Positions 2 through 566 of a stretch of 566 nucleotides of DNA are shown piece after piece. Made by a program: the position numbers and the translations under genes. The notes beneath the pieces were generated by a model. The model was not told where the DNA came from. It worked only from the letters and a program-made list of their open reading frames with translations, and did no database searches. Each line of letters opens with the position of its first letter. Position 1 is the first letter of the stretch. Origin of the DNA: a phage; sequence record EF517028.1. One strand, given 5' to 3'.

Positions 2-106
2 TGGGAAAAAGAAAACCCGCCAGTACAAGCAACTGGGTGTATAGCTTGCTTAGAGAAAGATGACCGTTATCCACACACACCTGTAACAAAGAAGCTAACG
101 ATATGA
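2..106 (+). CDS. 5'-partial ORF in frame +2 ending at TGA 104-106. Probably the N-terminal extension of the gene 1.7 long form displaced into another frame, or else a separate small upstream gene translationally coupled through ATGA.
   Basis: Frame +2 is open from the left edge for 34 codons: WEKENPPVQATGCIACLEKDDRYPHTPVTKKLTI*. Its stop overlaps ATG 103 (ATGA at 103-106). It contains a CxxC pair and an in-phase copy of the 12-nt repeat encoding LEKD, which is also present in the kinase body. An open frame of this length is only weakly significant on its own. Confidence 0.4.
   Translation, partial: WEKENPPVQATGCIACLEKDDRYPHTPVTKKLTI
49..60 (+). repeat. Copy 1 of a 12-nt exact direct repeat, CTTAGAGAAAGA
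   Basis: Identical 12-mer at 49-60 and 495-506. Copy 1 is read in frame +2 as (L)EKD within ACLEKDD. Confidence 0.8.
72..80 (+). repeat. Short dinucleotide tract, (CA)4 plus C
   Basis: CACACACAC at 72-80 read directly. It lies between the frame +1 stop (61-63) and ATG 103, which is the interval where the frame break must occur. Confidence 0.8.
89..94 (+). promoter_or_regulatory. Weak Shine-Dalgarno-like element (AAGAAG) for initiation at ATG 103
   Basis: AAGAAG matches AAGGAG at 5 of 6 positions and sits 8 nt upstream of ATG 103. Confidence 0.35.
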
Positions 107-566
107 CCGAACGTGAACAAGAGATGATTATTAAGTTGATAGACAATAATGAAGGTCGCCCAGATGATTTGAATGGCTGCGGAATTCTCTGCTCCAATGT
201 TCCTTGCCACCTCTGCCTCGCAAATAACGATCAAAAGATAACCTTAGGTGAAATCCGAGCGATGGACCCACGTAAATCACATCTGAATAAACCTGAGGTA
301 ACTCCTACAAATGATCAACCTTCCACTGAGACAATCGAAGGTGTCACTAAGTCTTCCCACTATATGCTGTTTGACGACATTGAGGCTATCGAAGTGATTG
401 CTCGTTCAATGACCGTTGAGCAGTTCAAGGGATACTGCTTCGGTAACATCTTAAAGTACAGACTACGTGCTGGTAAGAAGTCAGAGTTAGCGTACTTAGA
501 GAAAGACCTAGCGAAAGCAGACTTCTATAAAGAATTCTTTGAGAAACATAAGGATAAATGTTATGC
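103..566 (+). CDS. 1.7: Nucleotide (dGMP/dTMP) kinase, T7 gp1.7-like, 3'-partial. Starts at ATG 103 (equivalent to the internal start giving the short form in T7); predicted stop just beyond the window, about 568-570.
   Basis: Frame +1 is open from ATG 103 to the window end (154 complete codons) with no stop. Translation: MTEREQEMIIKLIDNNEGRPDDLNGCGILCSNVPCHLCLANNDQKITLGEIRAMDPRKSHLNKPEVTPTNDQPSTETIEGVTKSSHYMLFDDIEAIEVIARSMTVEQFKGYCFGNILKYRLRAGKKSELAYLEKDLAKADFYKEFFEKHKDKCY. The C-terminal part carries what I recall as the DUF3310 / T7 gp1.7 pattern (HY..IE.I..., G.CFGN..KY.LR.G.K, DL.KA..Y). In-frame TGA at 61-63 sets the upstream limit, and a weak SD-like AAGAAG lies at 89-94. The family assignment is from memory, not a search. 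Confidence 0.85.
   Translation, partial: MTEREQEMIIKLIDNNEGRPDDLNGCGILCSNVPCHLCLANNDQKITLGEIRAMDPRKSHLNKPEVTPTNDQPSTETIEGVTKSSHYMLFDDIEAIEVIARSMTVEQFKGYCFGNILKYRLRAGKKSELAYLEKDLAKADFYKEFFEKHKDKCY
495..506 (+). repeat. Copy 2 of a 12-nt exact direct repeat, CTTAGAGAAAGA
   Basis: Identical 12-mer at 49-60 and 495-506. Copy 2 is read in frame +1 as (L)EKD within AYLEKDL. Confidence 0.8.
549..553 (+). promoter_or_regulatory. Shine-Dalgarno (AAGGA) for a downstream gene starting at ATG 563
   Basis: AAGGA at 549-553 lies 9 nt upstream of ATG 563-565 (frame +2), inside the 3' end of the kinase ORF. This is the overlapping-gene arrangement typical of T7-like early regions. Confidence 0.45.
563..566 (+). 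CDS. Probable start of a small downstream gene overlapping the 3' end of gene 1.7 (position analogous to T7 gene 1.8); only 4 nt are in the window.
   Basis: ATG at 563-565 is preceded by a well-spaced AAGGA. The frame (+2) differs from the kinase frame, so the two genes would overlap by a few nt. It cannot be assessed further from 4 nt. Confidence 0.3.

What the first reader, a model, noticed from the sequence alone, without database searches (positions are those of the whole stretch)
178..216. Four-cysteine cluster (C-x3-C-x4-C-x2-C) in the kinase N-terminal region
Translation of 178-216 gives CGILCSNVPCHLC, four Cys within 13 residues with a His beside the third. The upstream frame +2 peptide adds a CxxC (GCIAC, codons at 38-49) that would join the same protein if the frames were fused. 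This spacing is typical of small zinc-binding knuckles. As I recall, gp1.7 kinase activity is reported not to need a metal ion and the protein lacks canonical nucleotide-binding motifs, so a Cys-rich module would be structural or would mediate binding to a partner or nucleic acid.
Basis: partly seen in the sequence, partly recalled or inferred. Interest (0 to 1): 0.5.

Follow-up and report, generated by a model that had tools for sequence, protein, structure and literature searches.

The report
Conserved four-cysteine mini-domain in T7 gp1.7
The four cysteines are real and are the invariant core of a small, undescribed, probably zinc-stapled domain at the front of the phage T7 nucleotide kinase gp1.7; it looks like an accessory module, not part of the kinase core, and metal binding is still untested.

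Summary
The window is gene 1.7 of a T7 derivative, 97.3% identical to T7 in DNA. Bases 178-216 do encode CGILCSNVPCHLC, which corresponds to T7 gp1.7 Cys67, 71, 76 and 79.

- **Conservation:** the four Cys are present in 119-120 of 121 close homologues. In 24 divergent copies (22-73% identity) the only invariant positions are these four Cys and one Asn. The neighbouring His varies. Cys codons switch between TGC and TGT.
- **Fold:** AlphaFold gives residues 1-60 of the ORF as a confident stand-alone helical mini-domain (pLDDT 88.6). A disordered linker joins it to the DUF3310 kinase core.
- **Known families:** nothing matches in Pfam, NCBIfam or PDB. The spacing and predicted fold fit no classical zinc knuckle, zinc ribbon or ferredoxin motif.
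- **Distribution:** only 14 of 150 diverse DUF3310 representatives carry the module. One carries it twice. Pectobacterium phage Q19 encodes it as a separate 72-residue protein.

I read it as a structural Zn(Cys)4 accessory domain for assembly or partner binding. Confidence is about 0.55, and no metal data were available.

The upstream CxxC belongs to a separate, movable C-x2-C-x8-H-x-C module. In this window a 2-bp CA insertion cuts it off. The downstream ORF has the same N-terminus (MTEREQ) as natural 155-residue homologues.

The parts
103..566 (+). Gene 1.7 ORF starting at MTEREQ (154 codons inside the window). It runs off the 3' end, one sense codon plus the stop before the T7 gene ends.
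   Evidence: Pfam DUF3310 E=1.9e-22. phrog_2585 'nucleotide kinase' covers residues 1-154. Many natural homologues start at this Met (155 aa, e.g. K1F).
103..276 (+). Cys4 mini-domain (ORF residues 1-58): helix 3-15, a Cys-bearing loop with short helical turns, and helix 48-53.
   Evidence: AlphaFold on 24 divergent copies gives pLDDT 88.6 and pTM 0.75. The same region scores pLDDT 71-90 in the whole-protein model. hhalign to the stand-alone Q19 protein gives 98.2% probability.
178..216 (+). The four-cysteine cluster C26-x3-C30-x4-C35-x2-C38 (the finding).
   Evidence: Invariant in alignments A2 and A3. Present in 119-120 of 121 close homologues. Synonymous TGC/TGT changes occur across phages.
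148..150 (+). Codon for Asn16, the only invariant non-Cys residue of the module.
217..219 (+). Codon 39 is Leu here. It is Pro in T7 and in 117 of 121 homologues (the 'C-P' that ends the cluster). This is a derived C>T change.
256..258 (+). Codon for Arg52 of the TLGE[IV]R helix, conserved in at least 90% of divergent modules.
277..342 (+). Pro/Thr/acidic linker (residues 59-80), predicted disordered. Its length varies and some homologues carry extra Cys/His inserts here.
   Evidence: pLDDT below 50 for residues 60-94. Sequences.
343..531 (+). DUF3310 (PF11753) match, the conserved core shared with all homologues.
   Evidence: residues 81-143. Most of the 150 representatives match only query residues about 78-154.
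2..106 (+). Frame-2 remnant of the T7-type N-terminal extension: C-x2-C at 38-49 and His at 74-76. It ends at TGA 104-106, which overlaps ATG 103-105 (ATGA).
72..80 (.). CA-repeat run carrying a 2-bp insertion relative to T7. This breaks the frame between the extension and the rest of gp1.7.
   Evidence: Not found in 107 phage records or in IMG/VR.
82..84 (+). TGT codon equivalent to T7 Cys35, the last ligand of the C-x2-C-x8-H-x-C module. It is now out of frame with the CxxC...H part.
89..94 (+). AAGAAG, where T7 has the Shine-Dalgarno-like AAGGAG upstream of the internal ATG. G92A weakens it.
   Evidence: The ribosome-binding role is inferred.

Best explanation
The four cysteines are the metal ligands of a small independent domain of about 55 residues at the N-terminus of the Studiervirinae-type gp1.7 nucleotide kinase. 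Most likely they hold one structural Zn2+ in a tetrahedral Cys4 site. That site would staple together a helix, a Cys-bearing loop and a second helix, which otherwise have little hydrophobic core. A disordered linker of about 20-35 residues tethers this domain to the DUF3310 core. The domain is an accessory module, probably for assembly of the gp1.7 oligomer or for docking to a partner protein. It is not part of the phosphotransfer machinery, so it does not conflict with the reported metal-independent kinase activity.

- **Shown here:** the cluster exists, it is invariant, it sits in a confidently predicted autonomous domain, and the domain is modular (absent, duplicated or free-standing in relatives).
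- **Inferred:** that a metal is bound, that the metal is zinc, and that the role is assembly or partner binding.
For: - **Conservation in close homologues:** C26/C30/C35/C38 are present in 119-120 of 121 sequences at 55-90% identity, while the residues between them vary freely. 116 of 120 keep the full pattern, and the four exceptions are rare variants (clusters of 1-11 member sequences).
- **Conservation in divergent copies:** in 24 modules at 22-73% identity the only invariant columns are N16 and the four Cys. P39 and R52 are at least 90% conserved.
- **Selection at protein level:** Cys codons interchange between TGC and TGT across phages.
- **Autonomous fold:** the module alone folds with pLDDT 88.6 and pTM 0.75. 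A beta-bridge between residues 24 and 47 closes a loop that holds all four Cys. The linker scores pLDDT below 50.
- **Modularity:** only 14 of 150 representatives at 50% identity have the module. P0128 has two tandem copies. Phage Q19 encodes it as a separate 72-aa protein at the gp1.7 position.
- **Not needed for the core:** some DUF3310 proteins are barely longer than the core, for example P0153, whose match starts at residue 5.
- **Literature:** gp1.7 is cited as independent of divalent cations (PMC7693777).
Against: - No metal measurement was available, and I could not inspect model coordinates, so the convergence of the four thiols is not verified.
- C-x3-C-x4-C-x2-C-P is not a named zinc motif in the searchable literature. 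The Pro after the last Cys is reminiscent of ferredoxin Fe-S motifs.
- Tran et al. 2012 (PMID 22761426) lists a co-author I recall, from memory only, as a metal-analysis (ICP-MS) specialist, so it may report the metal content of gp1.7. I could not read it. If it found no zinc, this explanation would be seriously weakened.
- The assembly or partner-binding role has no direct evidence.
Confidence: 0.55

Rival explanations
1. The four Cys bind an iron-sulfur cluster (or a rubredoxin-like Fe). The module would then be a redox or oxygen sensor that modulates the kinase or its oligomeric state.
For: All four ligands are Cys, and His never replaces them. A near-invariant Pro follows the last Cys, as in ferredoxin C-x2-C-x2-C-x3-C-P motifs (the motif comparison is from general knowledge). 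The context is helical, not a beta-knuckle.
Against: No Fe-S Pfam family matches. The only trace is a single Fer2 hit in 1 of 24 members at E=0.062, which is noise. The spacing differs from ferredoxin, radical-SAM, WhiB and EndoIII-type motifs (general knowledge). As far as I recall, no coloured protein was reported for purified gp1.7, but I could not check this.
Confidence: 0.1
2. The module is part of the kinase mechanism. It would contribute to the nucleotide or phosphate-donor site, or to allosteric dTTP binding, perhaps across subunits. The Cys4 site would hold that element in shape, and the invariant Asn16 and Arg52 would contact the nucleotide.
For: Asn16 is invariant and Arg52 nearly so within the module. 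The module is always on the same chain as DUF3310 except in Q19.
Against: About 90% of diverse DUF3310 representatives lack the module, and some are core-only. The linker is long and disordered. The module is exchangeable with unrelated N-terminal domains. Whether the module-less relatives are kinases is unknown.
Confidence: 0.12
3. The module binds no metal. The Cys form disulfides or act as a thiol redox switch, for example through interplay with host thioredoxin.
For: Four invariant Cys could form two disulfides. T7 biology already involves host thioredoxin (general knowledge).
Against: The protein is cytoplasmic and made in a reducing compartment. Strict four-Cys invariance with a flexible spacer before the second Cys (x3 to x10) is more typical of metal ligation.
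Confidence: 0.06
4. The module is a small helix-turn-helix-like DNA- or RNA-binding domain that tethers the kinase to nucleic acid.
Confidence: 0.05
5. The cluster is a chance clustering of Cys with no function.
For: Given 6 Cys in 154 residues, shuffles give such a cluster 1.8% of the time.
Against: The four Cys are invariant across 22-73% identity while everything between them varies, and their codons change synonymously.
Confidence: 0.01

Closest known systems
T7 gp1.7 nucleotide (dTMP/dGMP) kinase, Pfam DUF3310 (PF11753), phrog_2585
   Same: The window is this gene: 97.3% nucleotide identity to T7 8189-8752, the DUF3310 match, and full-length coverage by phrog_2585.
   Different: Relative to T7, a 2-bp insertion separates the first 33 residues. 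There are also 13 substitutions, including P80L next to the cluster. The Pfam model covers only the C-terminal core. The Cys4 module has no model of its own.
Retroviral-type CCHC zinc knuckle (C-x2-C-x4-H-x4-C, PF00098)
   Same: Four potential ligands lie within 13-14 consecutive residues in a very small module.
   Different: The ligand set is all Cys, the spacing differs, and the spacer after the first Cys varies (x3-x10). The predicted context is helical. There is no Pfam match.
Cys4 zinc ribbon of the T7 gp4 primase, and zinc ribbons or treble clefs in general
   Same: A Cys4 site in a T7 replication or nucleotide-metabolism protein, presumably a structural metal site.
Ferredoxin-type [4Fe-4S] motif C-x2-C-x2-C-x3-C-P
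   Same: Four Cys lie within about 13 residues, followed by a conserved Pro.
   Different: The order and spacing of ligands differ. No Fer4-type Pfam hit was found.
Pectobacterium phage Q19 orf13 (AZV02346.1, 72 aa) and phrog_14146
   Same: It is the same Cys4 module with all invariant positions: hhalign probability 98.2% and Foldseek probability 1.00.
   Different: It is free-standing, with no DUF3310 on the same chain. The downstream orf14 is not demonstrably DUF3310.

Membership tests
T7 gp1.7 / DUF3310 nucleotide kinase | Significant match to PF11753 above the gathering score | tested here: met
   79.5 bits against a cut-off of 24, E=1.9e-22, residues 81-143.
T7 gp1.7 / DUF3310 nucleotide kinase | Orthology and collinearity with T7 gene 1.7 | tested here: met
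   97.3% identity over all 566 bases to T7 8189-8752, inside the annotated gene 1.7.
T7 gp1.7 / DUF3310 nucleotide kinase | dTMP/dGMP kinase activity without a divalent metal | not testable with these tools
   Known only from citations (PMC7693777; PMC11897194). The primary papers were not readable.
T7 gp1.7 / DUF3310 nucleotide kinase | Intact full-length (196-aa) reading frame as in T7 | tested here: not met
   A 2-bp CA insertion breaks the frame. The 154-codon ORF from ATG 103 is intact and has the same N-terminus (MTEREQ) as the natural 155-aa form.
Zinc knuckle (zf-CCHC, PF00098) | C-x2-C-x4-H-x4-C spacing and a profile match | tested here: not met
   The spacing is C-x3-C-x4-C-x2-C. The adjacent His is not conserved. 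No Pfam hit even at E up to 10.
Zinc ribbon / treble clef / rubredoxin-like knuckle pairs | Two CxxC (CPxCG-like) knuckles on beta-hairpins | tested here: not met
Ferredoxin-type 4Fe-4S domain | C-x2-C-x2-C-x3-C-P motif and a Fer4 profile match | tested here: not met
   The spacing differs, and no Fer4 family appears in the Pfam scan of 24 members.
Structural Zn(Cys)4 site (generic) | Four invariant thiol ligands in a small domain | tested here: met
Structural Zn(Cys)4 site (generic) | The four S atoms converge to about 3.7 A in the structure, with stoichiometric bound Zn | not testable with these tools
TetR-type helix-turn-helix domain | Significant structural or sequence similarity, and a basic DNA-binding surface | tested here: not met

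The most novel reading that the evidence does not exclude
The Cys4 module may not be a passive zinc staple. It could be a redox-active or Fe-S-binding sensor, or the surface that host immune sensors such as Avs5 recognise. In that case it would couple the activity, oligomerisation or detectability of the T7 nucleotide kinase to the state of the infected cell. That would explain why it can be duplicated, swapped or encoded alone.
Probability: 0.08. Interest if true: 0.65.

Novelty: new variant of a known kind. Interest (0 to 1): 0.35.

Why it matters
gp1.7 is a known enzyme with an unexplained mechanism. By sequence-profile search no solved structure of it or a relative was found, no canonical nucleotide-binding motif is detected, and kinase activity is reported to need no metal. 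It has recently been identified as an activator of the Avs5 defence protein (PMC11897194), and it was mutated in T7 phages that escape retron Ec48 (bioRxiv 2020.06.21.156273).

This work separates the protein into three parts: a conserved but optional Cys4 mini-domain, a disordered linker, and the widespread DUF3310 core. That gives clear constructs for structural and biochemical work. It also removes the apparent conflict between a metal-independent kinase and a protein with a conserved metal-ligand set. The mini-domain has no Pfam model, so it could be defined as a new small domain family.

The gain is incremental. Small Cys4 domains are common in phage proteins.

Tried and rejected
- **Primary papers:** Tran et al. 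2008, 2010, 2012 and 2014 on gp1.7 are not held in the library. Whether metal content has already been measured is therefore unknown to me.
- **Literature links:** searches linking DUF3310 or gp1.7 to zinc, or looking for the motif spacing, found nothing relevant.
- **Solved structures by sequence:** the ORF, the family profile A2 and the module profile A3 gave no PDB hits even at E up to 10.
- **Foldseek of the whole-protein model against PDB:** nothing found. The model has two domains with a floppy linker.
- **afdb50:** the library was unavailable.
- **Database searches with the module:** profile A3 returned only a frameshifted gp1.7 fragment, P0271. Q19 orf13 returned only its own cluster. 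The IMG/VR scans with the module failed or were empty. The module's spread outside gp1.7 is therefore poorly sampled.
- **Is Q19 orf14 a divergent DUF3310 (a split gene)?** Not supported. hhalign probability is below 1%, and only a GNxLK match is shared.
- **Nucleic-acid-level features in the window:** none. There was one sub-threshold Rfam hit, and promoter-like and terminator-like sites were at the shuffle expectation. The minus-strand ORFs are 55 aa or shorter.
- **Programmed frameshifting at the CA run:** rejected. There is no slippery heptamer, and no other record has the insertion.

Full report
**What the window is.** The 566 bases align end to end with phage T7 positions 8189-8752 at 97.3% identity, inside annotated gene 1.7. 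T7 gp1.7 is 196 residues. The window starts 23 bases into that gene and stops one sense codon before its stop. Pfam detects only DUF3310 (PF11753), at residues 81-143 of the ORF that begins at ATG 103 (E=1.9e-22). PHROG family 2585, 'nucleotide kinase', covers the whole ORF. NCBIfam finds nothing.

**The observation.** Bases 178-216 translate in frame 1 to CGILCSNVPCHLC. These are Cys26, 30, 35 and 38 of the window ORF and Cys67, 71, 76 and 79 of T7 gp1.7. The upstream GCIAC is at 38-49 in frame 2. Composition gives weak support: shuffles of the ORF give such a cluster 1.8% of the time.

**Conservation.**
- Among 120 homologues at 55-90% identity plus the window, the four positions are Cys in 119, 120, 120 and 120 of 121 sequences. 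The residues between them vary freely.
- The His next to the third Cys is His in only 20 of 121 sequences (Ser 36, Gly 33), so it is not a ligand. A Pro after the last Cys occurs in 117 of 121.
- 116 of 120 homologues keep the full pattern. The four exceptions are rare variants (clusters of 1-11 member sequences) with a deletion or a single substitution.
- A full HMMER scan of 1.84 billion representatives found 1486 relatives. Most of the best 150 match only query residues about 78-154, the DUF3310 core. Only 14 of those 150 carry the cluster, always as C-x(3-10)-C-x4-C-x2-C-P.
- In an alignment of 24 such modules at 22-73% identity, the only invariant columns are Asn16 and the four Cys. Pro39 and Arg52 are at least 90% conserved.
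- At the DNA level the Cys codons switch between TGC and TGT in phages Yanou, EG1, K11, CLB_P1 and Q19 while the residue stays Cys.

This is strong purifying selection on exactly the four thiols.

**Anatomy.**
- AlphaFold on the 154-residue ORF gives a confident N-terminal region (pLDDT 71-90 for residues 1-60), a disordered stretch (below 50 for residues 60-94) and a moderately confident helical C-terminal core.
- The first 62 residues, folded with only the 24 divergent modules as the alignment, give pLDDT 88.6 and pTM 0.75. The model has helix 3-15, short helical turns at 25-27, 35-37 and 39-42, helix 48-53, and a beta-bridge between residues 24 and 47 that closes a loop holding all four Cys.
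- I could not read coordinates, so the convergence of the thiols is inferred, not measured.

**The module is separable from the kinase core.**
- One representative, P0128, has two tandem copies.
- Others replace it with unrelated N-terminal domains or have none at all.
- The Foldseek search of viral models found a 72-residue protein of Pectobacterium phage Q19. This is orf13, at the gp1.6-gp2 position of that genome. It contains the whole module and nothing else, and hhalign gives 98.2% probability and E=3.5e-14.
- The paper describing Q19 says the nucleotide kinase gene is missing from that phage (PMC7693777).
- A tblastn search found the module in 323 phage records. In the listed rows that carry a specific annotation it lies under a 'nucleotide kinase' or gp1.7 gene. 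Only Q19 and PcaP1EGY match over the full stand-alone protein.

**Comparison with known families.**
- No Pfam model matches the module in any of 24 members, even at E up to 10.
- Sequence profiles of the module and of the whole family hit no PDB chain.
- The spacing is not that of the CCHC knuckle, the zinc ribbon or the ferredoxin motif, and it is not a named motif in the searchable literature.
- The module is acidic on average, which argues against general nucleic-acid binding.

So it works like a small Cys4 metal-stapled domain, but it is not a member of any curated family.

**The upstream CxxC.** In T7 it is in frame, within GCIACLEKDDRYPHTC. That pattern, C-x2-C-x8-H-x-C, recurs as its own unit:
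- It occurs in 53 of 120 close homologues.
- It lies before the Cys4 module in T7-like proteins, between the Cys4 module and DUF3310 in P0124 and P0137, and without any Cys4 module in P0121, P0136 and P0228.
- It is therefore a second, dispensable mini-module, not extra ligands for the cluster.
- Two other Cys/His mini-patterns occur upstream of DUF3310 in other relatives.

**The frame break.**
- The window has CCACACACACC where T7 has CCACACACC. The insertion falls in the Pro-His-Thr-Cys codons, so the last Cys of the CCHC unit (TGT at 82-84) leaves the frame.
- The upstream frame then ends at TGA 104-106, overlapping ATG 103-105. From that ATG the ORF is intact. It has the same N-terminus (MTEREQ) as natural 155-residue homologues such as K1F gp1.7.
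- The ATGA overlap could allow reinitiation of translation. This is an inference.
- T7 has AAGGAG upstream of this ATG. The window has AAGAAG.
- From memory only: the abstract of Tran et al. 2012 mentions two molecular-weight forms of gp1.7 with similar activity. If the shorter form starts at this Met, the window would keep the short form. I could not check this.
- gp1.7 is non-essential in the laboratory (PMC9712115).

**Mechanism and its status.** The best reading is a structural Zn(Cys)4 site in an accessory domain that serves assembly or partner docking. It fits the invariance pattern, the small size, the closed loop, the modularity and the metal-independent catalysis cited for gp1.7. Metal binding, metal identity and the partner are all inferred. 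The rivals are Fe-S binding, a role in the nucleotide site, a thiol switch and nucleic-acid binding. None is excluded by experiment. The computational evidence makes each of them less likely.

**Verdict.** 'Zinc knuckle' should be replaced by 'undescribed helical Cys4 mini-domain, probably zinc-binding'. The gene is known and the kind of feature is ordinary. The domain itself appears to be undescribed in Pfam, in PDB and in the literature I could search.

Noticed in passing
window 92-535 (13 substitutions) and 72-73 (insertion): Relative to wild-type T7, 12 of 13 substitutions are G:C>A:T transitions (8 C>T, 4 G>A), and one is T>A. T7 isolate K115 (AY264776) has 8 different substitutions in the same gene, all G>A or C>T, plus a 3-bp deletion, and shares none with the window. 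At every window-specific site K115 agrees with wild-type T7. The window therefore looks like an independent, heavily mutagenised T7 lineage and not a natural relative. From memory, K115 comes from a mutagen-driven mutation-accumulation experiment. No record in the phage collection is closer than 97.3%.
   Followed up: partly
window 182-187 and 532-537: Two of the 13 substitutions (T183A and C535T) each create a GAATTC (EcoRI) site that T7 lacks at these places. This may be coincidence.
   Followed up: no
window 103-106: After the 2-bp insertion, the stop of the upstream frame (TGA 104-106) overlaps the ATG (103-105) of the downstream ORF as ATGA. This is the usual arrangement for translational coupling. 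At the same time the upstream AAGGAG of T7 is weakened to AAGAAG (G92A).
   Followed up: partly
window 217-219: The near-invariant Pro that follows the last Cys (117 of 121 homologues, and T7) is Leu in this window. A few natural homologues also have Leu, for example P0017.
   Followed up: partly
window 42-60 and 488-506: A 19-nt direct repeat (89% identical) encodes IACLEKD in the N-terminal CCHC unit and LAYLEKD in the DUF3310 core. The stretches 42-60 and 488-506 are identical in T7, so it is also present there. Its origin is unexplained.
   Followed up: no
L002 (Pectobacterium phage Q19, MK290739) 5933-6494: orf13 is a free-standing Cys4 module. The overlapping downstream orf14 (119 aa) matches several PHROGs of unknown function and the C-terminal part of a '3'-phosphatase, 5'-polynucleotide kinase' PHROG. 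It shares only a GNxLK motif with DUF3310. It may be a replacement of the kinase domain by another nucleotide-related domain.
   Followed up: partly
homologues P0005, P0012, P0123, P0134, P0140, P0146, P0172: DUF3310 proteins carry a repertoire of other tiny Cys/His cassettes upstream of the core, sometimes in tandem: H-x3-C-x8-C-x-C-G, and C-x-C...DGHALDC inserted in the linker. The N-terminal region of this family appears to be a shuffling ground for mini metal-binding modules.
   Followed up: partly
P0271: A metagenomic gp1.7 fragment of 93 aa keeps the Cys4 module but is frameshifted inside the DUF3310 core. It is a second example of a disrupted gene 1.7. Frameshifts in gene 1.7 may also be among the mutations in T7 escapers of retron Ec48 (bioRxiv 2020.06.21.156273), but that table is held only as an image.
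   Followed up: no
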